Assembly (NCBI GenBank): GCA_004022145.1
Contig: RCNU01000001.1
Direction: 5' to 3' (one strand)
Length of the DNA: 64,000 nt
DNA from: Paecilomyces variotii
Lineage: Eukaryota
Positions within the stretch are counted from its first letter, which is position 1, and every line of letters begins with the position of its first letter. This document shows positions 29,132 to 46,625 of this stretch, in pieces. A program made the translations under genes and the position numbers. The notes beneath the pieces are model-generated. The model searched no databases, had not been told where the DNA came from, and saw only the letters and a program-made list of their open reading frames with translations.

Positions 29132-29256
29132 GGTAGGGTAGTATAGTTATTTGCTAGCGGTCACCTTGTATCCAGCCGCCATTAATTACCCGTATATACA
29201 GTGTATCACAATACAGTGTATCACATGTACTTTCCTTTCGCACGTGGCGGTGGGTT

Positions 29257-29612
29257 GGTCGCGAGGTGGCGAGGCGGCGTCTCGCGAGGTGGCGAGGTTT
29301 TTGTTACCAGTAGATTACTAGTAAATTACTATTTTATATTAAAATTATATTAATATATACTAATAGGGAATAAAATCTAAAATTTTTAAATCTGGCGGGG
29401 TGGTAAGTACAGGTAAATCTTATCTCGCGGGGCGGTAAGATTGTAATTGCTGTATTTTATACTAAATATTATTAGTTTTACTAGTAAAGTTTAATTACTA
29501 TTAAAACAGCTTAGTTGTAAATTACCATTATACCGCCCCGCGAGACCGTGTAAATAACCGTTAGATCTGTATTAAAATTAAGCAAATACAGGCTATTAAT
29601 CTTGGCTGATCT
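29257..29612 (+). repeat. Left TIR of the MULE-like element
   Basis: Reverse complement of 37987-38342. Confidence 0.95.
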
Positions 29613-30174
29613 ACTAGTATATACTGGTAGATTTTAAAATCTACAGATACAAGAGACTAAGTATTATTAAAGGCAGAAGATAAAAGGGAGTTAGTAAGTA
29701 ATGTCTCCTAGAATATACTAGGTATTACTAGTTACTAACCATAATAACTAATTAGAAATATTTAAGATAAATTATAAACTTTTAAAGTTGTAATTATATA
29801 TATATATAATTATAATTTTAATTTAAATATTCTATTTTAATTTATTTTAATATAAACTAAATATTACTAATATAACTATTAACTAATATATTTATATAGC
29901 TCAATCATTTTTTAGAGATATTATAATTTACTGAAATATAGTAGTTATTACTATAATCTAGCAGTCAGGACCAGTAATTACTATAGTAAGCTCACGGGAA
30001 ATGGTCGGCCCGATAGGAGAGTTCCTATACTAAGCTTAGTAAGCTAAGGGTTTATACAAACAATACAAATATTTTAGCGAGTAAAAAGTTTAAACACACT
30101 AAAAAAACTTCTACAACCTTTTTATCTTTAGATATTACTTTTCTTTAGCTATTAATAGTCTTATTAAGACTATT

Positions 30175-33100
30175 ATGGCTTTAGATCTATCTCAAAGACT
30201 CCTAGGAGTTATAGAATCTAATAATATTTCTGACTGGAATCAAAAAGATGATTATTCAGTTTATTCTACTGAAACTCCTAATATCTTAGAGATATTAGAT
30301 GAATTCGAGCGGGAGCCTCAGGATGAAGACTCTGATAACGAAGATCCTTTGAATACGGTATGTTAATTACTATTATATACTAATCTTTACTGTGATAATG
30401 TTTATATTACTAATACTATATTATAATATTAGATTGACAACCAACCTACTACTAGTATATCTAGTAGGGAATCTAGTAACCAATTACTAGATCCAGAGGA
30501 GTTACATCCAATCTCTACCAATAGTTCATTGGAGATATTACCTTTTTCTAGATCAACCAGTGTTGAACTAGGCACGAAACCGCTTTTTGGTATTTTCAGT
30601 CAAGCTAAATACCTCCAATATTCTCAGACAATACCAGAATACCCTAGTACTCATCCTGAAGGTGTTGCTTATTGTGTGAACGTCAGTAACCTGACGCAAT
30701 CCACAATCGATAACTATCATAGTCAGGTAAGTATTAATCTATATTGGTAGCGGTTATAAGAGTACTAATATATATTAGGTTCAATATGGTAAAGGTTCAA
30801 GAACAACCAGCAGCAGTAAGACGAAAGTAACTGCACATATACCATTTCTTAATAATACTGAATGTATTGTTAAGAAATGGCAATGTTCTGGTGTTCGTTG
30901 TTGTCCACATGTACCAGAACATATTCAGACTCTCAATCATACCGAAGCTTCTGAAAGTATTTGGTTACAACTAGTACTCAATCGACATGACCAAGAAAAC
31001 ATTACCAATAACCGAACGGATCAGCAACGACTAGAAGAAACCAGCAACCGACTCTATGATTCTGGGATTTACCAACGAGACCATAGATGTCCTGATTCCT
31101 GCCGTAATGGAGGCTTGAAACTTGGATATGATCACACAAAGGTAAGTACTAATTCCAATTAGTATAATCTAATATATTAGTAGTATAATTACTACCAGGA
31201 CTTAATACTAATAATAAATCTTATTAGGATCTATACTGGCTTAGGTGTAACCAATGGTTCCCATCTGATAGTGCACAGCATTATTTCCAGTATCTTCCAA
31301 GAACACTAAACTTTGACCACACTCACTTGCGTGAGTTATGCAACTCGCAAGCCAGTAATTCTAATCCTACCAGTACCACTGGTTATACTGGTATCTCTAC
31401 CAATACTACTTCAACAACAAACCCACGAATCTGCAGTTTAGTTGAATCAGTACGAGCTCGCAGTAAATATTGTGGTAAGGAAAATTTTTAATCCCTACTA
31501 AAACTAACTGGATATAACTGCTAATACTGGGTACTATTATATTACTAGCTTATCATGGCGTATCTAGTCCGATTCAAACAGTTCCATGTGATGTTCAATT
31601 TTTGTATATCACACCTAAAGACTATCAGCAAGTACCATTTGTACTGTTTGTTAGTTTTGGAACCCATCGACATCCACCACCTCCTACAGCAAAGGTACCC
31701 CGTGATATCTGGAATGATATTACTAAAATTATTCAAAAAACCGATACTCGGGGGCTTACTGTTGGTATGTTTTAAGATATATTAGTAACCCCTAATAATT
31801 ACTAATAAAATACACTATATACTAACAACTATTAATACTAGGTCGATTCATACGGAATAGTAATCTCCAACAATACCTAAAAGAGAATAATGCAACTAGG
31901 CTTTCTCAGATCCACCCAGCTTTGAACAATCAGGACATTATACGCCAGATGATATACAAAGAAAAGCTATTAAGGAATCCATTTGGCGAGAGCTATGACG
32001 GTAAGTATAAGCTATAATTATTAATATATACTGGTAGATACTAATATATCCTATAATACAGCGGTTCTCTTCCAGTTCCTAATGAAAACCCAAAATTCAC
32101 AAAGTCATGAATACATTCGTGATATGTACAATGATGGGGTAAATATTCGTATCATTTGCTTTTCTCAAGAACAATCAGTTGCTTTCAGTAAACAACGTTC
32201 TTTTCAAGTCGATATGACTTACAAACGCACTGGTAATGGCTTCAACGAAGTTGTTTTTGCAACTATGCCAGAAACAGTTGGTAACGGTATGTACTACTAT
32301 ATACTAATTGTTACTAAGTATACTTAATACTGACTAAGCCTATTTACTACTTTAGCGGTTGTCCTTGCTCGAGTTTTTGTGAATAAAGACTCAACAACAA
32401 TGTACACAAAGCTATTCGAAAAGATTTTCCCTCTTTTAGCCGCTACTAGTAATAGTAGCAGCCACCGGTTCAACTGGTGGCACATTGATGGCTCCGGGAT
32501 ACAAGCAGTAATCACCGATATGTGTCACAAACAAGCTGCTGGTAAGTATTATAATAATCGGTTTTAGCAATATATATACTAGTATAGTACTAATATTTAC
32601 TAGGCCTTGGTCGATACTTATATAGTATCGATAATACCCGATCTTGGCAGGAGCATATAATGCATACTACCATATTCTGTTTGATTCACTATTTCCGAGG
32701 TGTACATCGGAAATATCGGAGCTTTGATGCATACCAGCTTATGCGTCGGTTAGTTTCAGAAACAACTAAAAGCAACTGTGATCGAATCTTACAGACTTTA
32801 CGCAACCACAACAACCGGGATATCCGAACATGGGTTAAACATAAGGAGATTCCTTGGATCCTATCTGGTCTAAACGCCAATTACTCTCGGATGCCTTCAA
32901 TTACGTTTAATACCTACCAGAGGAATTCAAATGCAGTTGAAGCGATACACCATCGGGACCAAGTCTTGACTGGTACTGGAATTTCGTTACTTAGTGCTAT
33001 CATCCAGTAGGTAATATAACCTATTGGATAAAACTATTACTAACTGGGTCTATAGAGCACAAGATATCGATAACCGAGCTGTTCATGGAATTAACCAGTA

Positions 33101-33736
33101 TCTTGAAACTGGTGTAAGACCTGCTTCAAATTTGTCTACACCTCTAAGGCGTATTCAGAATCGACCAGTACAAGCTACACCGTCAATATCAACTGGTAAG
33201 TAATAAAACCTATTATATGGTTAATTATACGGAGACTATTATTATATATAAAATACTAATAAAGTACAGTTACATCTGGTATTGCTAGCCCAATTGATCT
33301 TACAGATAGCCCAGACCCTCCAGTGGCAACTCAGGCTATTCAATCTATATTGGATAGATTCAACTCTAGTGGTGTTACTGGTAAAAGAAAGCGAACTCGG
33401 CAGGCCATGACTACAGACCCTATTACGTCGCCTACACCTAACCAGAAAAGATCCAGAAAATCAGCAAATAAGAACCTAATACTGACAGCAACTGGAACTA
33501 CTGGACCTACTGATATACCTAGCTTTGAGAGGTTACCCTCTTTAGAGACTAGTAGTCAGTCAAGAAATACTAGGGTACCTAGTAACATTATGGCTTACAC
33601 CGATGAACCAGCTGCTACTGGTAACACCAATACAACTAACGACAATGATCTGGCATTTAATAGAGAGCTTACCGCTCTCCAAGATAATATCAATCGCCAG
33701 ATATTAGAACTTCGAAAGAAGTATAATAAGATGTGA
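30175..33736 (+). CDS. MULE-type DDE transposase, 11 exons, about 960 aa, reading frame intact
   Basis: Exons approx. 30175-30357, 30433-30726, 30779-31141, 31228-31474, 31549-31764, 31842-32000, 32062-32287, 32356-32541, 32604-33006, 33056-33196 and 33270-33736 splice GT..AG in frame without stops. Motifs GTHRHPPP, FQVDMTYK (D1), VITDMCHKQAAGL (D2), FCLIH (CxxH) and NSNAVEAIH (E). Confidence 0.85.
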
Positions 33737-33955
33737 GCAAGGATAATAGGTTTCGGTTTCAAGTTTTGTCATTTAGTATTACCAGAAGATGTTAGTGAGT
33801 TAAATATTATTAGTTAATACTAATATATTAGTCTATTAAAAAGAGATATATTATAAAATCAGTTTATTAAACTAGAACTACTAGTATAAACTATACTAGA
33901 TTACTGGTTACTAGAAAACCAGATAGTATTAAATTCTAAGTCTGAATTGCAACTA

Positions 33956-36070
33956 CTGGACCTAATTATCTAGTATATAGTCCTACCTAATATATAATTT
34001 TTCTTAAGGAATTTAGAATTTTAAAATATAAATATCTTTATAATTAGTAGATTAAATATTTAAATATTTAAATAAGATATTTTAAAACCCTTAAAAATAT
34101 AATATATATAATTTTTATAAAAAATATTAATATTAAAATAATTAAATCTATTATTATATATAATAATATTTAAAAATTATTTATTTATTTTAATCTTTAA
34201 TAAATTAATTATTTTTATTTATTTTATTAATTAAATATATTTAAATAATTTTTAAACTTAGTTATTTAATATATAATTTTATTTAAACTTTTACTAAAAT
34301 TTAAAAAATTTAAAATATAAATATTATTAATAAATAATTAAATTATTAAATATTTAAATAAAATAAAATTATTAGTTTTATCTTTACAATAAGCTTTATA
34401 TAAAAATAGAATTATTTATTAGATATAATAAGATTTTATATTTAACTTTCATATATCTTTTTATAATTCAAATCAAAAAATATTAATTTAATTAGATAAT
34501 ATCTGAATGAACCGACATTCTTACTAATTTTTAAATATAGAGATATTATTAATTTTTTAAAGATATTTTATAATATTATAAATAATTCAGATTAAAAATA
34601 AATTTAAAAATTAATTTTTATAATTATTTTGAAAGATATTATAATTATTATTAAAAATTAATAAATATATAGAATTTTAAATAATAAAAAAAAATTCTAA
34701 ATCTCTCTTATATAATTAAAATAAATAAATAAATAAAAATATTAAAAGTAAGCTTAAAATTAAATTAAAATTAATTTTTTAAATAATAATATTTAAACTT
34801 AAATAAAGAAAAATAATATAAATTTTAACTTTTAAATCTATATTATAATTTATAAATTTCTTTATAAATAAAACTTAAAGAAATTTTTAATTTAAATTAA
34901 AAGGAATATAATATATTAAAGAAGTATTTTTAATATATTAAATCTATTAAATCTATTTATAAAATAGTTTTAATAATTTAAATTTAAATATTATATATTT
35001 TAAGTTTATTCTAATATTTTTTATTATTTATATTTAAATATATTATATTATTAGAAAAATTTATTTATTTTTTTTAAAAAATTTTAAAATATTAAATTAA
35101 ACCTTTATTATAATAAAGTTATTTAAGAATTAATTAAAATAAATTAATTATTTAATAATAAATTATATAGATTAAATCTTTAATTTATTATTAATTTAAA
35201 AATATATAACTTTTAATTTAATTATTAAAAAAAATAGAATTTATTTTTAAATTTAAAAAATTTTTAATTATTCTTAATAATAGACTTTATAAAAAATTAT
35301 TAATTTAAGAATTAATAAAATATTTAATATATTTTAAAACTATTATTAATTTTTTAATATTATTAATTTAAAAGTTATTTTATATATTAATTTAAATATT
35401 ATACTTTTAATATAATATAATATATATTTTTATTATTTAATTATATAATATATAAAATATTATAATAATATTTAAATTATTTTAAAAACTATAATAAATT
35501 ATAATATTAATATTTAAATTTTAAAATATTAATAATATTATAAAATATAATATTATTATATTTTAAAGTTTAAAGATAAAAAAAGAAGTTTTTCTTATAA
35601 TTATTTTATATTTTTTCTTATATATAAATTATTTTATAAGTTAAAAATATTAAAAATTACTTTAAATTTAAGCTAAAAAATAAATTAAAAATTTCATTAA
35701 AAAACTTAATTAAATAATAAAAGAATTAAGAATTAAATAATTTTAAAATAATATTAAATAAGTTTATTAAAATTATAAAAAGATTTATAAATATTTTATT
35801 TATTTAAAAATTATAAAAATATTAATTTATTAAAAATTAAAATAAAAAAATTTAAATATTATTAAATATAATAATAGATTTAATTATTTTAATATTATTA
35901 TTATTCTATAAAAATTATATATATTATTATTTTTAGGGATTTAGAATACTCTACTTAAATATCTAATTATTTACTCTACTAATTATTAAGATATTTATAT
36001 TTTAAAGTTTTTAATTCCTTAGGGAAAATTATATATTAGGTAGGACTATACACCAGATAATTAGGTCCAG
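33956..36070. mobile_element. RIP-degenerate TIR transposon relic (Tc1/mariner-type by TA duplication), nested in the MULE
   Basis: TA|CTGGACCTAATTATC...GATAATTAGGTCCAG|TA with imperfect TIRs of about 200 bp. The interior is almost pure A/T with no ORF; length 2115 bp. Confidence 0.85.
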
Positions 36071-36238
36071 TAATAATGGAGATATTTTAAGCAGTGTACC
36101 AGTAAATTTACTAGCTACCAAAAGGGACCAGTATTAATCTACTACGGTCTACCTAACTGCCTTTACAAGAAACCAGCACCAACCAGTACCAACCAGCACC
36201 AAGCAGCACCAACCCATTGCCCAGTTGCGATTAGTTGC

Positions 36239-37364
36239 TCACGCCTTCGCCTTTCCTTTGCCTTTGCCCTTAGCACCGCTGGCCCCACCAGTAGTACCGG
36301 TAGCACTGCTCTCATTGGTGGTGGTGGGATTGTTTCGGGTCTTACGAGGTGGGTAGTAGCTATTGGTAAGGTTAGTAACAACCAGTATATCTTAGAATAT
36401 CAATACTCACTGGGAACAACTGTGATTGATCCTATCACAGGCCTTGTGCTTCTTGTTTGCACATGATTTGCAAGGACTAGTTGTATTAGTAAATACCAAT
36501 ACCAACCAAGGAAATAACATATACTAGTAGAACTGTTACATACCCGATGGTCGTCTCAGGGGATTTTGATCTAGCGGAGTCATCAGAGGAGTCCTCCCCT
36601 TCAGAATCGGTTTCTGCCACTTCGAGTTCACTACTACCATTAGATACTAGTATCACAGAGTATATTCTAGTAACTGCACTTACTGATCGCCCTTGCCCTT
36701 TCCCCCATCTAAAACCCTCAGGCCCTTAAACAGATCGATACGTTTGGATCCCTATTAGTACTACCAGTTAGTATCAGTAGAGAATCAACCGAATGAGTAT
36801 ACTCACGATATGAGATGTCTTGATGTGTTTGCGAATAATGGAACCCGAACCCCAAGTCGACTGGTTCGCTCTAGTAGGACCAGTCAGTACCAATACTAAC
36901 TGGGCAATTATACAACCAATTAATACATACGGCTCGTAGACGCAATATGGACAGCGTTTCGCACACTTCGGTATCTCCTAGTAGCTATTAGTACTCTCAA
37001 ATATAACCAATAAGGATTAGACGTAAATACTTACGATCTCGCCTTTGTACGGCCACTTCTTCTTCTCATGATGGGCGCAATCGCAAATTTTTTTCTTCCT
37101 GTAACTAATCAGAATAGTACTACCAGTAAATACCAATATGTAATAGACGTACACGATTTTGCTGCTCTTGGACGGGGTAGCCTCCTGCGCGTTGGGATTA
37201 CTGGTTAAACCAGTAGTATCAGTGGTATGACTGCCGCCAGTAGGGCCGGTGGGAGCAGTATAACCAGTCGTATCAGTGGGATTGGTGGTAACGGTGGTAA
37301 CGCCAGTGGTATCGTCACTGGCATTGGTAGTAGTATTACCGGTCGGACTGGTAGGGGTCGCCAT
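36239..37364 (-). CDS. Transposon-borne Cys/His-rich (zinc-finger-like) protein, 8 exons, about 243 aa
   Basis: Seven short GT..AG introns join in frame: Thr/Pro-rich N-terminus; KKKICDCAHHEKKK; CAKRCPYC-x16-HIKTSH; acidic stretch; CKSCANKKHKACDRINHSCSH; basic tail GKGKGKAKA* (TGA 36241-36239). An alternative ATG lies at 37409. Confidence 0.65.
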
Positions 37365-37810
37365 CGTACTAGTTGGTAGACTGTACCTACCTAATCTACC
37401 AATCGCCATCTGTTAGTAATTAGTACTTACCAAACATAACCAATATAACCGGAAACGCATAAAAAGTGGTAAGAAATGGGAGTAACCAGTATTGGCTTTT
37501 GAGCCTAATCATTGGTCGCGGTCGCAACTGCCAAGTCTGACTATCGCTTTCCCGTTCCCTATAAGCTCAAACTAGGGGATATAAGGTTTAAAAGAGACAG
37601 AATTAGAATAATAATAAACTCAGTGTATCCAGACACCTTTATTAGGGATTAAAAACAAGATTAACTAGGACTTACCTGTCTGAAGATGGTTGACGAAGGG
37701 AAGAAATTAAAAGGGATTAATCAAATGTGATTTTTTTTTCATATGGTGTTTGTGGGCTGAGTGAATAACATACTAGCCTAATTTGGAAATATAAACATCT
37801 ACCAGAGTGA

Positions 37811-37931
37811 ATCTGATATTGCCTAGTCTACTAGTCGGATATAGCCTACGAGTATACCAGTTGTATATAGCCTGCCACCAGTATACCAGTCGGATATGGC
37901 CCACTACTAAGGTATAAGTCGGATATTGCCT
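37811..37931. repeat. Five imperfect copies of an approximately 15 bp motif AGTCGGATAT(A/T/G)GCCT, subterminal in the MULE
   Basis: Copies start near 37811, 37833, 37859, 37888 and 37917. Confidence 0.7.
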
Positions 37932-37986
37932 GGCATACTAGCCGCGACTACCTTGTACCAGTACGTTTTAGTAGACTAGTTTACCA

Positions 37987-38342
37987 AGATCAGTTAAAAT
38001 TAATAGCCTGTATTTGCTTAATTTTAATACAGATCTAACGGTTATTTACACGGTCTCGCGGGGCGGTATAATGGTAATTTACAACTAAGCTGTTTTAATA
38101 GTAATTAAACTTTACTAGTAAAACTAATAATATTTAGTATAAAATACAGCAATTACAATCTTACCACCCCGCGAGATAAGATTTACCTGTACTTACCACC
38201 CCGCGAGATTTAAAAATTTTAGATTTTATTCTCTATTAGTATATATTAGTATAATTTTAATATAAAATAATAATTTACCAGTAACCTACTGGTAACAAAA
38301 ACCTCGCGACCTCGCGAGACGCCACCTCGCGACCTCGCGACC
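37987..38342 (-). repeat. Right TIR of the MULE-like element
   Basis: Reverse complement of 29257-29612. Confidence 0.95.
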
Positions 38343-38726
38343 CATATAACCCGCACGTGGTGCGATTTTTTTTTTCTTTGTCTTCCTAAACATCCTTGTT
38401 TTGTTCTTCTAGCCCCGTAATCAACGAGACCATATCGATGAAATATATACGTAGAATCGACCATATAAAATCCCTCATCCCCTCCCCCCCAATCTCTACA
38501 ATAGAGTTAGCACACACACACACGCAATATAATAATAATTCACCATATTCTACATCAACATTCCATCTTACAAAGTAAATAAATACATACATACATACCC
38601 ACTAAGTAATTTTTCCCCTTCCCATATCAAAAACAAGACATACTCGTACTCGTACTCGAAAAAAAAGCAAGGACCAATCTAAAAGAAAAAGAAAAAAATA
38701 ATAATAATAATCGGGCCAAAAAAAAA

Positions 38727-38798
38727 TGGAGTTGCGGGGAATCGAACCCCGGACCTCATCCATGCTAAGGATGCATTATACCACTAAACCACAACCCC
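38727..38798 (-). tRNA. tRNA-Ala(AGC), acceptor variant GGGGTTG/CAACTCC
   Basis: Same body as the copies at 19.7 and 20.3 kb with one compensatory base-pair change; T-run terminator. Confidence 0.97.
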
Positions 38799-39801
38799 AT
38801 TTGATGAAAGAAGGGTCGGGAAATATGTTACATATACCAAGATTATTGGCTGTTTAGTTCAGTTCTCAGTTAGACGATGGTAGTTACTGTAACTATGCTT
38901 GTAATTTTATCGAGAGTAGATTTAAATTAAGGTGTGTAGCCGGTAGGTAAGTGCATATTCTTGATGACTAGGTAGCTCATTATTCCAATCCTACTCTTTG
39001 AGCAGCATACTTAGGTGGTGGCATTAACTTGAAAGTGTTAATTGCTTTGGTACTCCGTATTTCATTTGTCGTAAGAAGATGGATAGTTAGAAAGTGCAAG
39101 CTATTGTTATTATTATTGAGTTACCATCTACTATTTACGATATAATGCTCAAGATTAAGATGATAAGATGATTACCATGTGGTATTTAAAAGAAAAGTAG
39201 CTAACAATCTCCATGCCGAAGCACTCTGGTATTTCTAAGTACGTTGGTGCAATATAGACGCCTGTGAACTATTTCCCTTTTCGCCAATTTGAACAGAACA
39301 CCGCACCCAGATACTGTGGAAAAAACAAGCAGTAATCCCAGAGAAAGCTCTCTGTTCGAGCTGGGTATAATAAAAAACAAATGCTTTTGATCACGTAATT
39401 CAGGTCATTAAAATGTGTATGTTCAATGCGATTTGCAAATTCCAAGGGGAGGAAAAAAGAATCCCTCTCGAACAGCCCATCATGACGCGTTCGAAGGGTC
39501 ATGAATGATCGAACAGTGAGACGTCGCGGACGTCGAGACTAGGTCTGGCGAATTAAGGAGTAGACGGTAGTCAGAACGGGAAGCTGATGGACCGTGGTTG
39601 ATGTCAGTTCCAACGGCATCCGCGGTTCTGGCGTCCCATGGATGATAAACGCGCAAGCAACTTTAATTGTCCCAAAGCACACAGGCGAACCAGGCCCCCG
39701 GTCTTAATGACTAATAGCAGATTCATGACTTCGTAAGAGTTCCGGTGCAGTCCAAACAGGGGATGCAGATGGAACTATTGCAAACCGAAAGATGAGCGGT
39801 T

Positions 39802-41454
39802 TCACCGTACAACACCCTGTGCGACATCAGACGAGTCGCCTTCGTCTTCGGGATGAGCACGACCTCTGGTCTCAATTGGTGGTCCGGCAACGAGGTCGTC
39901 GGTGGTCAGTCGTGCCCTCTCCTGAGGACGACTCTCCATGCTTTCCATTGATGGTCGGGAGGACCTGGTGGAGTCACCATCAAGTCGCAAGTGCTCCATC
40001 CTCTCGAGGTCCTGGTAGTCAGGGAGCGGTAGTGGAGAGCCTCGGTAATCTTCCATGGTGCTGTTGACGTCCAAAATCGCGTATCCGGGAGGGCTGGCAG
40101 GTACATCGTTGTAGACAGGTGGCATCTCCTCGTCCCAGCTGATGCCCAGTCCACTCCGCTCGGTGACGTGCAGGTGGAACTGCATCCGGAGAACACGGGC
40201 AGCTCCGGTGGGCGTGATAAGTTTGGTGTTGCGGTTGGGGCAGAACTCCTCGGCGACGATAAGTTCGATCACCAGATTGTGCTTCACCTCTAGTCCACCG
40301 GGGGCGTCCATATCACACACTGGGTTGCAGCCAGGTTTGATGTTCGCATCGAATTCCATCGTAATCTCACCTCCAGCGGTGTCGAAGTCCGTTTTCCATC
40401 CACTCTTCTCCTCATTGTGTCCGATGATTCTGGTTTCCTGGTGCAGGACTCCCTTTCCTTCCCCGCCGACCTTGTGAGCATGTTTCGCGCAAGCAGTGGA
40501 GATGATCTTCTGGTGCTCTTCAATGCGCCACATCATCTTTCGTAGGCGCCATCTCGTCTGGGTCTCCTCGCCCTTGTCGACCACTCCGCTCAGAGTCATT
40601 TGAACCGGGAAGGTTCCAATGGGATGGACGACGGAAGGAAGCACCACCCGACCGGTGAGATTAGTGGGAGGGAAGATGCGGATGGAGGACTTGTCATTTC
40701 CGGGCAGAATGGCGCGACGGATCGTCAACGGTGTCTGGAAGGTAAACTCCTCTCCAGTCGAGGTCAGGGCCCTGGCCGAGAGCTTATATTCTACCCCTCC
40801 CAGTGTGCCATTGGCAGAAGCGGGGAGATGGCCGGGGAACAAGTAACTGAAAGGATAGTCATGTTTACCGCGCTGCAGCTTGGCGGGTTCTGTCAAGAAA
40901 TCCCACTCACACAGCGGTTCTGTGCGGGTGGAACAGTTGGGGCAGTCCCTCGAGACTGGCTTCTTCGTGCTGATACTGGATGTCAAGCGCATCTCAAGCT
41001 TCTGGAGAGTGACCGCTCCAGGGATCTCCGCCACATCGATCAGGAGACGGCCAGACATCAGAGCGCCGCTCGAGTTTGCTGGACTGCCATAGAAGACGAG
41101 AGGCGGGGATTCGAAGATGACGTCCAGCTGGGCCGGAGGCTGATGAGACTCGTCTCTGGCTGCTGGACGCTCCTTTGACCGCGACGAACGCCCCAGGCTG
41201 CGGCGCTTCTCCTTGCTTTCCTTGTGGGGGTGGATGAGAGATTCGAGAGATTCCATGGAGAACGACAGACGACGCTCAGGGATTAGAGCCTGCACGGCAT
41301 GAGCATTCGCGGGTTGCTTCCGCGACACCGTTTGGTGGGAGATTTCGTTGACTGACGACGATGAAGAGTTGTTGGAGTGTGTGGAAGCGGTAGCAGAATT
41401 GTGTAGAGAAGAGGCGACGGGCCGGACGAAATTAGGGAGGAGACGGCCGGGCAT
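39802..41454 (-). CDS. LDB19: Alpha-arrestin, Ldb19/Art1-like Rsp5 adaptor
   Basis: 550 aa ORF. FESPPLVFYG..SGALMSG, YPFSYLFPGHLP, RIFPPT, WRLRKMMWRIEE, PTGAARVLRMQF and ERSGLGISWDEEMPPVY; PY-type motifs PPVY, PPGY and LPDY. Confidence 0.85.
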   Translation of the reverse strand: MPGRLLPNFVRPVASSLHNSATASTHSNNSSSSSVNEISHQTVSRKQPANAHAVQALIPERRLSFSMESLESLIHPHKESKEKRRSLGRSSRSKERPAARDESHQPPAQLDVIFESPPLVFYGSPANSSGALMSGRLLIDVAEIPGAVTLQKLEMRLTSSISTKKPVSRDCPNCSTRTEPLCEWDFLTEPAKLQRGKHDYPFSYLFPGHLPASANGTLGGVEYKLSARALTSTGEEFTFQTPLTIRRAILPGNDKSSIRIFPPTNLTGRVVLPSVVHPIGTFPVQMTLSGVVDKGEETQTRWRLRKMMWRIEEHQKIISTACAKHAHKVGGEGKGVLHQETRIIGHNEEKSGWKTDFDTAGGEITMEFDANIKPGCNPVCDMDAPGGLEVKHNLVIELIVAEEFCPNRNTKLITPTGAARVLRMQFHLHVTERSGLGISWDEEMPPVYNDVPASPPGYAILDVNSTMEDYRGSPLPLPDYQDLERMEHLRLDGDSTRSSRPSMESMESRPQERARLTTDDLVAGPPIETRGRAHPEDEGDSSDVAQGVVR

Positions 41455-44400
41455 GGTGGGCGAGCTTCACGCCTTGGGTGAAGAAGTTAAGGATGTAGAC
41501 TTAAGATCCCCCTCCCCCAAGAGATAAGACAATCAGGCTATTCCCTTGTATAAAAAAAAAATTCAGATAGCCAATGGCGAGTGGTGAATGGCGCGGACAG
41601 TGGCTTTGTCCGAGTGACGTTTGCGGAAAGAGACGCTCTCTGCGGATGCGACGTAGAAAGTGCAATTGAAGTATAAAATGCGGATTCGGCAGCTATAGTC
41701 TTCGAGTTGATGAGATGAGTGAGAAGAAAGACGTGGCACGACGGTTCACATATACATCGTCCTCCGCGCGAGATCCTGCAGCAATGACGGCAGCGCAGGC
41801 GCAATCTAGACTGGGGAAGTCGTGATCCAAGTCCCTGTGGTGAGATGTGCGTGAGATGGAAGCGGGTTATTCTTAGGCAGTATGCGCGCAGCAAACAGGG
41901 TATCAAAGATGAGAAGCGAGTACGCAAAGTCGTAGTGTCAAAAAGTCTCAAGTAGAAGTAATAATAATAATACTACCAAGATCGTATTCTACGACTCCCT
42001 GGTGGGCGCCAGGGAGGTTTTGTAGTCTATGTCTCGAACAAAACATTTGCCAGGCGGCAAGGGGCCACCGAGGACCCAGCAGCCAACGTCTTTCCCAGAT
42101 CCATCTAAGCTTCGACCAAGGAACGAGTTTTTTCTCCGTCGAGACTTTTTCTTCTTTTTTTTTTCAGACCAGGTGGTTCATTCCAGGGCATTCGGAGCGT
42201 ACCTTGACGGCCTAGCCACCGATGCTCGCGGACAAGTGGGGTCTCGTTTCGAATCGACAGGTCTCGACACCGTCTCGTTTCTTACCGGATACCATACCAT
42301 ACCATCATCATACAGCCAGCGGGATGACACCATCTGGGTTTGGAGGAGTACTATGATTAGATACCTACCTAACCTAGGTATGACCCTGACTCATTTTGCC
42401 CTCATCAACATGAAACAGAAAAGGACCAAAAGAAAGCTTCATCTTATGAAAGTCTAGAACTCCTAGTAATAATTCGTCAGATGTGTATACTGCTCTTGAG
42501 ACGTACTCATGGTCCAAGCAAAAGCAAGGGTAGTCTAGATAGAAATCACCCTGCAGTGTGCACACTATGGTAACTGTTGTTGCAGGGTTAACTACTACTA
42601 ACTACTCCACTGCATCAGGTCATGCTTCCCATCCAACTCTGACATGCGGGGTAGATACGGCTGTACTGTACTTGCGACGGACATATGATCGATCGCCTTG
42701 ATCAAGAAGAATAGCATACTAACGACCGTGCATTGTTGATGACTGGATGGATGCAGTACATAGATGCCGTCGCCGGGGAATCGGAGACGAGTCCCTGACT
42801 CCCTGATCACCTCCGGGCGAGAGTTTAGGGTACGTGGCCTGTCACGTGCTGAACCAAGTAGATAGGATGGCAATCTGTGAGATCGAGATGAGCAATGGTG
42901 TTGACATTCCGCGCAATGCCAGGATCATCTCGTGCTATGCGCTTGACGTGTCGCAACGGTCACCCGCCATCGCCGTCATCGGCTCATCACGTGGCGCCAT
43001 TGTCAGGCTGTTGACCGCCCAGGAACTTGTAGCCGGACTGGCACTGCCGCTTTGCCGGACCCAGCATGCACCATGGGCAATACCGATTGTGACGATCACA
43101 ATACGGTAACAATACGGCTGCGAACAAAGAAGGCGCAGCCCTATTTGGCGATCCCGCGGGCGCCAGGATGCTCCACCAGACACGCCGGGCTGCCATTGGC
43201 TCCCCTGCAGACCCAGGGAAAATTCTGAGGATTCTGTTCTCCTCGCTGCTTCCTGTTTGGGCTCCTCGTCGCTTAACCCCGCACTGTCTGCTCTGCCGGG
43301 CCCGCGGGGATTATTATTATTATTGCGCAGGAGAGCAGCTCGGCTATCCTCATATTATTATACTGTAGTATGTTATTGCATTTGGCACATGAACTCGACC
43401 CCCTTTCTGCACAGGGGTCACTACAATTTTCTCGAGAATCTAGGCTGTCTCAATATCTTTTAGTTTGGCCACTTGGTGCTCTGTGCGCTCGTTTCTGGGG
43501 GATGATGCAGCGTGATGACAGCTGGGATGGCAGACTAATTACCTAACAGCTTTGTTCTCATTGCAAGTCCGGGGTCAACAAGCTTAATGCGCTACCTTTC
43601 TCCCCTGCCACGTCGTCCATAGAGATCTCGCCATCGGGAGCGTGGCCGTGTTTCGACGCCAGAAGTCAGGGTCTGGTCTCTACTCTAAGCTTACTACTCT
43701 ATTACTACGTACTACTACTAATCATACATGATGATACATACTCCTCCCCGAAGCGCATCACGCTCGATCCAACGGGTACCTTGCGAACGTGCTTCGCGCG
43801 ATGGAGACGGATTCGTTGAAGCTCTCCCGGTGCAATCATCGGGAAGATCGCACCATTCATCCCTGGCCCGGTACCCTCGTGGTCTGATGGAGAGTAGGTA
43901 TGATCCTACCTCCTTGTTAGGGAGATTAAGATAATTTCGGACTCGCTCCCGGCCCATGACTCCCGGATGCCGGGCCGTGGATATTATTGGGTCACGACTT
44001 GCGGTGTGTTCTACCCATAACATACATTTTTGCTCTGATCTATACTGAAACATCTCCCTCTGCAACAGCGTATCTCAGTTATCAATCTAAACGACGAGTA
44101 TAGCCGGCAATAATAAAATACGCCGTCTCCACCGTCGTCCATGGTTCCCGGTCTGGATGCCGCACTTCAATCCACAGCAGGAGACCGCTGGTGTCGGCTG
44201 CTCTACGGCGCTGTAGTAGATCTGTCGTCCAGCGGGTAGATTTTTTTTGACTAGGTATCTATCTCCATACAATGCCCTATCTCGAATGGTGCCCGCATCA
44301 TGGCCGTCGTTGCGAAGCCAGATCCACCTACACACGCCCGAATACTACGTTGCGCCAGCAGTTGCCATGGAACAAAGCAATCCATCTTTTCGTATTCTAT

Positions 44401-45730
44401 CCACCGGCAAAACCATGTGAGGAATTATTGTTATTTAGGTCCAGTACGGTGCTTTATTATTGTGGGAAAATTATGGCTGAAAAGCACACCATCCTACAAC
44501 CCGGGATTCTGCACCCGAATCGCCTGATTTGGCCCTTTCATGTCGGCTTTAGTCAACCGTCACCACATCGTTAGGGCGTACTGTTCTCGAGGTTGGTCTT
44601 ATGTAACGCCCCGTTGCAGTAACTAATTAAAATAATACCCTTCTGGGTCGCACGGTTGTCCCTATTTCTGTCAATTCGTGACTCATTTTGCGCTCTATAA
44701 TAATAATAAAAAAAAATTAATCAAACCCTCAAATATGCTATGTCGCTCTTACACCGCACCGCCTGGAAAAGTCAGCCATACCCACTTGTCTATCGGGCGA
44801 GACTCGACACCGAGTGGACCGCATCGCAGCCCCTGGAGGCATTTTTTCCGCTTCAGGAATTCTCACGCTGCTTGCTCGGCATCCAGAAGTTCCTCGCGAT
44901 CTCTATTTTGAGCACCAGGCGACGGCGCGTCCTACTATTGGCTCCGTAGGCCGCCGGCGTCTGTGTAGAATATTTTTGGCTGGCGGGCCCCTCGATTAAT
45001 TCTTCCATCGGCGGGTCTTGCCTTTGCTAAATAAATTCTGCCGTGTCTTCGGAGGTCTCCGTCGGCCGCTGCTAACCGCTGCCAGATCTACTAACTATCT
45101 AGTAGTAGTAGGAAGTCCAGAGCATTATTATTGTTGCCATCTCTTCTTCGAACTAAGCGCTGGCGCATGGCTTCACACAATATCATTAACTAATTAACCA
45201 ATTGTTAGTTTGCTGGAGATCTCATCCTTTAATTTACCTGCTACATTACCCATTTGCAGCGGGTTCATTGCTATAGGATATGTAAATACCTACCTGACCA
45301 GGTTCCCAGGCTCTGGGCCAAGGTCGGGCAAGCAACTTGCGAGCTTGGAGAGGTCCAATATTCCGTTTGCTTTTCATGCCATTTGGGATATAGCGACTGC
45401 TCTGTGTGGATATTCTCGACGTAATAATAATAATCTAAATGGTATTAGCTGCTTAAGAAAGTCAGCCTTTACTTCCCCGCGGAAATAATACTATCGCTCA
45501 GAAATATATATTATATATCGCACGGGAAGGTAACAACAATATAACCCATAAGAGGGCGTAGGCGTTGCGCTATCAATCATTTAAACCCAATATGCAAGAT
45601 ATAATACTATATTAACATCTCTATTATTATTGCTATCTATAGATATGCGTCTTTATCTGTCTTACCGAAAAAGGTGACTCTCTAGAGATTCCCCTCTTAA
45701 ATCGCATTGAGGAGCAGACTATCATCCAAT

Positions 45731-45802
45731 GGGGTTGTGGTTTAGTGGTATAATGCATCCTTAGCATGGATGAGGTCCGGGGTTCGATTCCCCGCAACTC
45801 CA
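45731..45802 (+). tRNA. tRNA-Ala(AGC), identical to 38727-38798
   Basis: GGGGTTG...CAACTCCA followed by a T-run. Confidence 0.97.
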
Positions 45803-46625
45803 TTTTTTGCCGATTTAATATTTTTTGTCTCCACGAAGAGGAGGGATGTGTCTAGTTTATATATACTGCTACCTACTGACATTGTGCAGTATTTTCATTT
45901 TTCCTCTTCGTTGTTGGTTGTATATCTATCATTGTTGATGTCGGAGGAAGTTAACGAGTGACCTTGGTAGAAAAGTATCGCGTGAGCCATGATGGAGCTC
46001 CTCTATTCAGGTTAAAGAAAGTATACGGATAGTAATATGTTTTCTGGTAAATGCCGTTTAAGTCTCAGATATAATCATCTCGTCCTGGGGTATAACCCTG
46101 TAGTTACTATGTAGTATTACTTCAACTACTTATAGTCTACATAGTACATACAAACATACCAACTCTACCCCTCCCCCTTTTCCTCCGGGTGTTTTATGCC
46201 ACGTTACATGTTCGTGATTGGATCTTCAATTGACTTGATTTCTCATCGGAGAAACCAAAAGATTTCATGATACCTCTCGCATAATTCTTTCCTGCGTCAA
46301 CAGCAAAGAACGGGGATCATTAATTGGTGCTATGTTATGGTGATGTCGGCTGCGCATCGTCCGTTTCGCCGCATCGTGACCCATCCCGACTCTCCGCAGC
46401 TCCGCTCCATTTTATTATCATCGCTTCGATAACGGCGACACCCTCTCTTTGCTTTCTCCTCTTGCGACGCGACGCGACGCGCAATTGGGTGCCGTCGCTT
46501 GACAATCCCAATAATTAAACTATAACTATCCTATCCAATCCAATCGCATATGATCTTCAATTGACGACGCAACCACCACCCTCACCTCCGTGTCGAGTCG
46601 AACTCGACATTTTGCCTCTCCCGCA

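What the first reader, a model, noticed from the sequence alone, without database searches (positions are those of the whole stretch)
36239..37364. Hidden 8-exon cargo gene with C2H2-like and truncated Zn2Cys6-like motifs in the mudrB position
Seen: seven introns of about 50-60 nt splice into an open frame of about 243 aa. It contains CxCxHH, CxxxCPYC-x16-H-x4-H, an acidic patch, C-x2-C-x7-C-x6-C (like the first four Cys of a fungal Zn cluster) and Lys-rich patches. Inference: a nuclear DNA- or chromatin-binding accessory protein such as a transposition cofactor, target selector, autoregulator or anti-silencing factor, by analogy with plant MULE accessory genes (mudrB, VANC). I see no sequence similarity to those genes and recognise no family.
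Basis: partly seen in the sequence, partly recalled or inferred. Interest (0 to 1): 0.72.

Follow-up and report, generated by a model that had tools for sequence, protein, structure and literature searches.

The report
Expressed zinc-finger gene inside fungal Mutator-like transposon
The eight-exon gene is real and spliced exactly as described, sits as the second, convergent gene of an apparently intact Mutator-like transposon in the mould Paecilomyces variotii, and encodes a small zinc-finger-like protein of an unnamed fungal family whose role in transposition is still untested.

Summary
Observation confirmed. The minus-strand model (ATG 37364, stop ending at 36239, seven GT..AG introns of 51-67 nt, 242 aa) is reproduced. 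One cDNA-like contig of run X5 carries all seven joints exactly. The product is identical to an NCBI 'hypothetical protein' of Paecilomyces variotii, so it is annotated, not hidden.

It lies inside a 9.1-kb element with 356-nt TIRs and an exact 9-bp target-site duplication. It is convergent to an intact 840-aa transposase gene. That transposase has no Pfam hit but resembles MULE clusters in the ESM Atlas.

The protein has no Pfam family. An exhaustive search found 14 distant relatives: 13 from named Eurotiomycetes and one from unnamed metagenome contigs. They share a Cys/His core of about 75 residues, which AlphaFold models confidently and which has no PDB match.

A role as accessory factor is plausible but untested. 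Its host-like codon usage, and relatives held on one contig each in several Penicillium species, keep 'captured passenger gene' alive. An element-specific motif, TACYRGTA, suggests a testable DNA target.

The parts
29239..29247 (.). left copy of the 9-bp target-site duplication CGCACGTGG
   Evidence: Exact 9-bp direct repeat with 38352-38360 (11 bp with 1 mismatch), directly outside the two arms.
29248..29612 (+). left terminal inverted repeat
   Evidence: 29257-29612 pairs with 37987-38342 over 356 nt at 96% (aligned). It holds 8-nt GGTGGCGA-type subrepeats and TACYRGTA sites at 29305 and 29316, 11 nt apart. The outermost 9 nt do not match the right arm in this copy.
30175..33733 (+). transposase gene, 13 exons, 840 aa (equals P0003)
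   Evidence: 837 of 840 residues of P0003 map as exact peptide segments; the other 3 sit at exon junctions. No Pfam hit at E<=10. ESM Atlas feature scores of 0.96-0.88 to MULE-annotated clusters, with 10 of the 10 best family-bearing hits in one family or clan.
33954..36072 (.). block of 5-7% GC with its own 169-nt inverted ends; probably a nested, RIP-destroyed TIR element
   Evidence: Inverted repeat I2, 88%. GC 0.071. A TA dinucleotide flanks both ends, read by eye.
36171..36214 (.). 10-nt tandem repeat (AACCAGCACC, 4.4 copies) just 3' of the stop codon
36239..37364 (-). coding region of the second gene: 8 exons (37364-37153, 37098-37035, 36977-36931, 36870-36807, 36751-36684, 36630-36544, 36476-36411, 36359-36239), 242 aa (equals P0002)
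   Evidence: Model. All 7 joints are in X5 contig record 25. Identical to P0002.
36689..37154 (-). part coding for the conserved Cys/His core (residues 71-150; last two bases of exon 1, exons 2-4 and most of exon 5, with their introns)
   Evidence: Invariant C97, C101, P102 and H123; nearly invariant I94, C104, R121 and H128 in 15 sequences. pLDDT 72-94 over residues 71-150. Coordinates are my own arithmetic from the exon lengths.
37365..37397 (-). at least 33 nt of 5' untranslated region
   Evidence: The X5 contig reaches 37397. A contig end is not a transcription start.
37825..37901 (.). 29-nt tandem repeat (2.8 copies) between the gene's start and the right TIR
37987..38351 (-). right terminal inverted repeat
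   Evidence: TACYRGTA sites at 38276 and 38287, 11 nt apart. Contigs of X1-X3 leave the window sequence at 38342, 38351 and 38352.
38352..38360 (.). right copy of the 9-bp target-site duplication

Best explanation
This is the second gene of a two-gene Mutator-like DNA transposon (29248-38351) in Paecilomyces variotii.

Shown:
- The gene is transcribed inward from the right end, convergent to an intact transposase gene, and is spliced at seven introns.
- It encodes a 242-aa protein. Thr/Gly-rich and Lys-rich tails and an acidic patch are modelled as disordered. They surround a confidently modelled core of about 75-80 residues: CxCxxH, then C-x3-C-P-Y-C, 18 residues, H-x4-H.
- This core is shared by a small unnamed family; every member whose source is named is a Eurotiomycete.

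Inferred:
- The core binds two zinc ions: a C2H2/BED-like finger plus a CCHC-type site.
- The protein is nuclear and binds nucleic acid.
- It acts on the element that carries it, most likely by binding element DNA. A candidate target is the element-specific palindromic motif TACYRGTA, which occurs as a pair in each TIR and is scattered through the element. Binding would help or regulate the transposase or the element's expression.
For: Gene reality:
- All 7 joints are in one X5 contig, and X5 also splices a host intron.
- The same 242-aa model is in NCBI for several strains.

Inside an element:
- TIRs of 356 nt at 96% and an exact 9-bp TSD directly outside them.
- The transposase gene is intact: 837 of 840 residues map exactly and the other 3 sit at exon junctions.
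- The Atlas places the transposase with MULE clusters.
- The transposase and this protein carry consecutive NCBI accessions in strain DTO280E4. Taking that as adjacency is my inference.

Shared history of the two halves:
- ACCAGT/ACTGGT occurs 3.8 and 8.8 times per kb in the two halves, against 0.16-0.34 per kb in host DNA.
- The introns of both genes have GC 0.28-0.32 and TpA/ApT 1.5-1.8.
- The peptide NPT-x-TTGYT occurs in both proteins.

Selection on the core:
- Invariant C97, C101, P102, H123 and nearly invariant C104, H128 across 15 sequences at 24-38% identity.
- RIP-like indices are lower in the exons than in the introns (0.86 against 1.83).
- Both genes are intact in a second allele: 2 aa changes in this protein and 6 substitutions in the transposase.

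Fold:
- pLDDT 72-94 over residues 71-150, with both His in helix 116-129.
- Only sub-threshold likeness to C2H2 or BED fingers.

Candidate target:
- 23 of the 25 TACYRGTA sites in the window lie in the element's 6,985 bases outside the AT block. Dinucleotide shuffles give 1.5 +/- 1.25, with a maximum of 7 in 500.

Precedent:
- MULEs with extra ORFs such as mudrB, mutB, vanB and vanC (passages of PMC6446971).
- VANC21 binds a short motif enriched in its own element (passages of PMC5735166).
Against: - No experiment or computation here links the protein to transposition or to DNA.
- Its coding GC3 is host-like (0.54, core 0.60; host ORFs 0.55-0.66), whereas the transposase has 0.33. The two genes therefore differ in compositional history.
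- One branch of the family is at least 90% conserved across five Penicillium species, each copy on record on one contig, up to 7.6 Mb long. That looks like an ordinary host gene.
- I could not see the genomic context of any relative.
- The motif family looks partly like RIP products of a CCAGCA-type simple repeat. It may therefore be mutational debris, not a binding site.
- Zinc binding is inferred from residues only.
- The transposase fails Pfam's MULE model.
- The tips of the two TIRs do not match in this copy.
Confidence: 0.45

Rival explanations
1. Passenger gene. A complete host-type gene of this zinc-finger family was captured by, or enclosed in, the Mutator-like element. It is still expressed but does nothing for the element.
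For: - GC3 is 0.54 (core 0.60), like host ORFs at 0.55-0.66 and unlike the transposase at 0.33.
- In Penicillium the family has members held on one contig per species, up to Mb size. One branch is at least 90% identical in P. thymicola, P. discolor, P. camemberti, P. viridicatum and P. nordicum, and one member is annotated only 'Zinc finger, C2H2'.
- MULEs are known to acquire host sequences (passages of PMC6446971).
Against: - No second copy or closer paralogue was found among P. variotii proteins: only the one cluster came back. RIP could have erased a donor copy, though.
- Pack-MULE cargo is usually gene fragments (passage of PMC11162782). Here the whole gene, its promoter region and seven working introns are kept.
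- Its introns carry the element's own k-mer signature, about 10-50 times the host density.
- The closest relatives are in Onygenales, not in Eurotiales. That is a patchy pattern, although the tree is unresolved.
Confidence: 0.35
2. Neutral or decaying ORF. The transcript is real, but the protein has no function and is on its way to being destroyed by RIP.
For: - RIP-like indices are raised over the whole element, exons included: TpA/ApT is 0.86 against 0.49 in host ORFs.
- RIP is active in this species (passages of PMC6300479).
- About two thirds of the protein is modelled as disordered low complexity.
- The two allelic differences are both transitions.
Against: - The frame and all seven splice sites are intact in the two alleles seen.
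- The Cys/His ligands are conserved in relatives at 24-38% identity.
- Exons are much less RIP-like than introns.
- The core is modelled with pLDDT up to 94.
Confidence: 0.1
3. Not one element. A host gene happens to lie between two independent TIR-bearing insertions, or beside a one-gene element.
For: - The TIR stretch has far higher contig depth than the interior in X1 (1422-1761 against 37.7). Contigs also leave the TIR end into several different flanks, so short TIR-bearing copies may exist. Depth is not a copy number.
- A 2.1-kb foreign block separates the two genes.
Against: - The exact 9-bp duplication flanks the whole 9.1 kb.
- Both halves share a k-mer signature that is absent from host DNA.
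- No other copy or solo TIR lies in the window.
Confidence: 0.05

Closest known systems
MuDR of maize (mudrA transposase plus mudrB)
   Same: A two-gene Mutator-type element with long TIRs and a 9-bp TSD. The second gene lies between the transposase gene and the far TIR and is transcribed convergently (layout here; mudrB as described in passages of PMC6446971).
   Different: No sequence likeness is known. I had no MURB sequence to compare, and Pfam finds nothing in this protein. The host is a filamentous ascomycete. The product is a Cys/His finger protein. The transposase is too divergent for Pfam's MULE model.
Mutyl of Yarrowia lipolytica (transposase plus second ORF mutB/'MudrB')
   Same: A fungal MULE of similar size (7.4 kb) with a 9-bp TSD and a second ORF of unknown or DNA-binding role (passages of PMC6446971 and PMC5014426).
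   Different: Mutyl has 22-bp TIRs, against 356 nt here. Its host is a yeast of the Saccharomycotina. Homology of the second ORFs was not tested. The two passages of PMC6446971 disagree on the orientation of mutB.
VANDAL21/Hiun of Arabidopsis (vanA, vanB, vanC)
   Same: A MULE whose extra gene product, VANC21, binds a short motif (YAGTATTAY). That motif is enriched in non-coding parts and introns of its own element. VANC proteins have conserved domains beside variable, repeat-like regions (passages of PMC5735166). Here too there is an element-specific short motif and a protein with a conserved core and low-complexity tails.
   Different: Binding is not shown here. The motifs are dispersed and palindromic, not arrayed in one orientation as tandem repeats. 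No homology was tested. The fungal silencing system at stake would be RIP and associated methylation, not RdDM.
C2H2 and BED-type zinc fingers
   Same: The ligand pattern C-x2-C ... H-x4-H, with both His on a helix in the model. There are weak sub-threshold hits in relatives: zf-H2C2_5 E 0.0054, zf-C2H2 E 0.036 and zf-BED E 0.042 in P0014. A ZFAT finger scores E 0.34 and a ZBTB10 finger is first in Foldseek at E 3.2.
   Different: No hit reaches a curated threshold, and there is none at all for this protein. The Cys-to-His spacer is 18 residues. An extra conserved CxCxxH...C part precedes the finger. There is no structural match at Z>=2.

Membership tests
Mutator superfamily element (MULE) | Target-site duplication of 8-11 bp (as stated in PMC6446971) | tested here: met
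   Exact 9-bp direct repeat CGCACGTGG at 29239-29247 and 38352-38360, directly outside the arms.
Mutator superfamily element (MULE) | Terminal inverted repeats, often long | tested here: met
   356 nt at 96%. The outermost 9 nt are mismatched in this copy.
Mutator superfamily element (MULE) | Transposase with the MULE catalytic domain (PF10551 or related) | tested here: inconclusive
   Pfam gives 0 families at E<=10 for P0003 and P0024, and there is no PDB sequence match. ESM Atlas features score 0.96-0.88 to clusters named or annotated MULE/SWIM, with 10 of 10 family-bearing best hits in one family or clan. A D...D...CxxH...E pattern is visible by eye in P0003 and was compared with the recalled MULE signature only.
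MuDR-type accessory gene (mudrB-like) | Second gene inside the TIRs, convergent to the transposase gene | tested here: met
   Transposase gene 30175-33733 (+), this gene 37364-36239 (-), both inside 29248-38351.
MuDR-type accessory gene (mudrB-like) | Sequence homology to MURB | not tested
   No MURB sequence was available from a tool. Pfam finds nothing in P0002.
MuDR-type accessory gene (mudrB-like) | Needed for insertion of the element | not testable with these tools
   Needs genetics.
VANC-type anti-silencing factor | Short DNA motif highly enriched in the protein's own element | tested here: met
   TACYRGTA: 23 of 25 window sites lie in the element, against 1.5 +/- 1.25 in 500 shuffles. 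TAYYRRTA: 57 sites in the element against 11 in eight times more host DNA. The sites are not arrayed as same-orientation tandem repeats.
VANC-type anti-silencing factor | Protein binds that motif and removes silencing marks | not testable with these tools
   Needs gel-shift or ChIP assays and methylation assays.
C2H2 zinc finger (PF00096) | Match to the family profile above its curated cut-off | tested here: not met
   P0002 has 0 families at E<=10. The best relative, P0014, scores 15.0 bits against a cut-off of 25.2.
C2H2 zinc finger (PF00096) | C-x2-4-C ... H-x3-5-H ligands on a beta-hairpin plus helix | tested here: inconclusive
   C101-x2-C104-x18-H123-x4-H128 are conserved. The model has strand 90-93 and helix 116-129. 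There is no significant structural match. The canonical 12-residue spacer is recalled.
Fungal Zn2Cys6 cluster (PF00172) | Six Cys in the pattern C-x2-C-x6-C-x5-12-C-x2-C-x6-8-C (recalled) | tested here: not met
   Only four Cys are present (C183, C186, C194, C201, with spacings 2, 7 and 6). There is no Pfam hit. pLDDT is 41-51. The cluster is shared by 1 of 14 relatives.

The most novel reading that the evidence does not exclude
The protein is a sequence-specific guardian of its own transposon, a fungal counterpart of plant VANC. Through its two-zinc module it would recognise the TACYRGTA-type motifs that pervade the element (TIRs, introns, spacers). It would keep the element transcribed and mobile, for example by hindering heterochromatin, DNA methylation or RIP-linked silencing, in a species where RIP is experimentally active. 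That could explain how a two-gene element stays intact next to a nested insertion that has been mutated down to 5-7% GC.
Probability: 0.1. Interest if true: 0.8.

Novelty: new member of a known kind. Interest (0 to 1): 0.4.

Why it matters
What the extra genes of Mutator-type transposons do is still largely open; mudrB is still described as of unknown function in the review passages read (PMC6446971). I found no paper on such a gene in filamentous fungi. The searches were made, and the accession search gave 0 papers.

This is a compact case with both genes intact and the second one shown to be spliced. The mould can be transformed and crossed, and RIP has been demonstrated in it (passages of PMC6300479). 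Deletion, tagging and excision assays are therefore feasible.

The finding also defines an unnamed Cys/His domain family in Eurotiomycetes that Pfam and the PDB do not cover.

Tried and rejected
- Whole genome: none is held for this window, so copy number and other insertion sites could not be counted.
- Earlier findings of this scan: nothing by place, sequence or words.
- Pfam on single exon references: one search failed on a frame slip of mine and was not repeated. The database protein was scanned instead.
- Pfam on 8 stop-to-stop pieces of the transposase region: no real hit; one chance-level ACOX match at E 0.072.
- Genomic context of relatives in metagenome contigs: the 15-sequence alignment was too diverged to search with. 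P0009 alone gave 292 pattern matches with none confirmed. A 5-sequence alignment gave 86 pattern matches with none confirmed.
- Word-based protein search with P0002: only its own cluster came back.
- ESM Atlas for P0002: best score 0.89, below the level that means anything; structure rows have TM <= 0.25.
- Single-sequence AlphaFold: pLDDT 41.8.
- Fold searches: Foldseek found nothing at E <= 0.001. VIA-align wide found nothing at Z >= 2.
- PDB by sequence: only a ZFAT finger at E 0.34.
- Family tree: 9 of 12 inner branches are unresolved, with no usable grouping of the cargo protein.
- Bacterial-type promoter and terminator scan: not applicable to a fungus.
- Complex prediction of the transposase with the core domain: never accepted because the queue was full. 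There is no result of any kind.
- Runs X1-X3: unspliced contigs, also unspliced at the host intron. They are uninformative on splicing.
- Two papers (PMC13004909 and the bioRxiv preprint 10.1101/2025.06.16.659975): passages were read, and nothing bears on this element.

Full report
**The observation.** On the minus strand an ATG at 37364 opens a frame. After removal of seven introns of 54, 57, 60, 55, 53, 67 and 51 nt, the frame runs to a stop codon ending at 36239 and gives 242 aa. All introns have GT[AG]NGT donors and YAG acceptors. Openness alone proves little: trying all nearby AG acceptors gave many other open combinations of 264-268 aa.

The decisive evidence is transcript data. Of the 11 runs that hold this stretch, I laid four on 36073-46000. 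Run X5 is listed only as 'RNA?'. It holds one 769-nt contig (depth 26.2, no differing letters, 36242-37397) with all 7 of the 7 predicted joints at exactly the predicted places. The same run removes a 65-nt GT..AG intron from a neighbouring gene (44002/44068) and has about zero depth over 37397-38389, so it behaves as RNA.

The three metatranscriptome runs X1-X3 hold unspliced contigs here. They also run unspliced through the host intron and the intergenic DNA, so they are uninformative. The evidence for splicing is therefore one contig in one run.

**Identity.** A search with an unbroken window reference covering exon 1, in-frame intron 1 and exon 2 returned a 242-aa 'hypothetical protein' of Paecilomyces variotii. 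Its cluster holds two sequences. P0002 is identical to my translation and is filed under NCBI accessions from at least two strains. P0001 differs at two residues. The gene model is thus already in public annotation. No paper in the library holds its accession numbers. The flanking genes are fungal: an LDB19 arrestin at E 9.7e-63 and a weak Fungal_trans match.

**The surroundings.**
- Arms 29257-29612 and 37987-38342 are 356 nt long and 96% complementary.
- Directly outside them lies an exact 9-bp direct repeat, CGCACGTGG, at 29239-29247 and 38352-38360. Contigs of X1-X3 leave the window sequence at 38342, 38351 and 38352. The element is therefore 29248-38351.
- On the plus strand, 837 of 840 residues of a second P. 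variotii hypothetical protein, P0003, map as exact peptides in 13 exons over 30175-33733. The other 3 sit at exon junctions. This gene is intact.
- P0003 and P0002 carry consecutive accession numbers in one strain.
- P0003 has no Pfam hit even at E<=10 and no PDB sequence match. The ESM Atlas puts it at 0.96-0.88 beside clusters annotated MULE or SWIM, and 10 of 10 family-bearing best hits agree.
- With the 9-bp duplication and long TIRs I call the element Mutator-like. Membership by catalytic domain remains inconclusive.
- Between the two genes lies a 2.1-kb block of 5-7% GC with its own 169-nt inverted ends. It is probably a nested element destroyed by RIP, which is experimentally active in this species (passages of PMC6300479).

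**The protein.** Pfam finds nothing, and the word-based search finds only its own cluster. The exhaustive HMMER search of 1.84 billion representatives found 15 proteins at E<=0.001. One is its own cluster and 14 are others of 84-235 aa, with E from 3.5e-18 to 8.6e-4. I looked up all 14:
- 13 come from named fungi: Trichophyton violaceum, Microsporum audouinii, Myotisia sp., Aspergillus sclerotialis and nine Penicillium species or strains.
- 1 comes from unnamed metagenome contigs.
- Myotisia and Paecilomyces were checked to be Eurotiomycetes. The placement of the other genera is from my own knowledge.

The matches cover query residues of about 70-145. In the alignment C97, C101, P102 and H123 are invariant, and I94, C104, R121 and H128 are nearly so. 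The upstream CxCxxH is present in most members. The C-terminal four-Cys cluster is shared only with the Trichophyton protein.

With this alignment AlphaFold models residues 71-150 at pLDDT 72-94, with strand 90-93, helix 116-129 holding both His, and strand 140-143. The rest scores below about 60. Without the alignment the mean was 41.8. Foldseek and VIA-align find no PDB match. Only sub-threshold likeness to C2H2 or BED fingers appears. I read the core as a two-zinc module: a C2H2/BED-like finger preceded by a CCHC-type site. That is inference from residues and model only.

**Does the gene belong to the element?**

For:
- Both halves of the element share a k-mer signature that host DNA lacks. 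ACCAGT/ACTGGT occurs 3.8 and 8.8 times per kb against 0.16-0.34. TACTAG/CTAGTA occurs 6.1 times per kb in both halves against 0.2-0.3.
- The introns of both genes have GC 0.28-0.32 and TpA/ApT 1.5-1.8.
- A shared peptide, NPT-x-TTGYT, occurs in both proteins.
- No paralogue was found in P. variotii.

Against:
- The coding GC3 is 0.54 (core 0.60), like host ORFs at 0.55-0.66, while the transposase has 0.33.
- One Penicillium branch of the family is at least 90% conserved across five species, each copy on record on one contig, up to 7.6 Mb long.
- The family tree is unresolved.
- I could not see the genomic context of any relative. This is the main gap.

**A candidate target.** The palindromic motif TACYRGTA occurs 25 times in the window. 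Of these, 23 lie in the element's 6,985 bases outside the AT block. Dinucleotide shuffles of the element give 1.5 +/- 1.25, with a maximum of 7 in 500. Each TIR has a pair 11 nt apart. The relaxed family TAYYRRTA counts 57 in the element against 11 in eight times more host DNA. These may be protein-binding sites, as for VANC21 and its YAGTATTAY motif (passages of PMC5735166). They may also be RIP derivatives of simple repeats such as the AACCAGCACC array at 36171-36214.

**Verdict.**
- The gene is annotated but uncharacterised, and its domain family is unnamed.
- My best reading is an element-borne nucleic-acid-binding accessory protein (0.45). A captured passenger gene comes next (0.35).
- Two-gene MULEs are known in plants and yeast. 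Table passages of PMC6446971 list ascomycete MULE groups with '1 or 2' ORFs. This is therefore a new member of a known kind, of moderate interest. The interest comes mainly from the fact that the host allows the function to be tested.

Noticed in passing
window 33954-36072: A 2.1-kb block of 5-7% GC with 169-nt inverted ends at 88%, flanked by TA on both sides. It looks like a nested TA-target TIR element mutated almost to pure A/T, sitting between two intact genes.
   Followed up: partly
window 29248-29256 and 38343-38351: The outermost 9 nt of the two arms do not match in this copy. A contig of X1 leaves at 38342 with 9 letters that are the exact complement of the left tip, so another copy or strain has a matching right tip. 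This copy may be impaired for transposition.
   Followed up: partly
window 38059-38389: In X1 the TIR stretch has a contig depth of 1422-1761, against 37.7 for the element's interior and 124.7 for the neighbouring host contig. Contigs diverge into at least two different flanks at 38351 and at 38352. Short TIR-bearing derivatives may be much more numerous than the full element, but depth is not a copy number.
   Followed up: no
window 37407-37409 (minus strand): An in-frame ATG lies 15 codons upstream of the annotated start. The X5 contig ends at 37397, so its use is unknown.
   Followed up: no
window 29248-38351: The palindromic motif TACYRGTA and its transition derivatives (TAYYRRTA) are about 40-90 times denser in the element than in host DNA. 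Pairs 11 nt apart sit near the outer end of each TIR.
   Followed up: yes
window 30175-33733 versus 36239-37364: The two genes of one element differ strongly in third-position GC (0.33 against 0.54), although their introns and RIP-like indices are similar.
   Followed up: partly
window 31360-31389 and 37250-37290 region: The transposase and the second protein both carry Thr/Gly/Asn-rich tracts with the shared peptide NPT-x-TTGYT. These tracts are coded in the same ACYRGT-rich 'language' as the element's non-coding DNA, which suggests that low-complexity coding parts grew out of the element's own simple repeats.
   Followed up: no
window 37825-37901: A 29-nt unit repeated 2.8 times lies between the second gene's start and the right TIR. 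It is a possible regulatory array.
   Followed up: no
P0024 (strain DTO166G4): In another strain's assembly the transposase gene sits alone on a 4.3-kb contig. It differs from P0003 by 6 substitutions and by a 19-residue difference in the gene model.
   Followed up: partly
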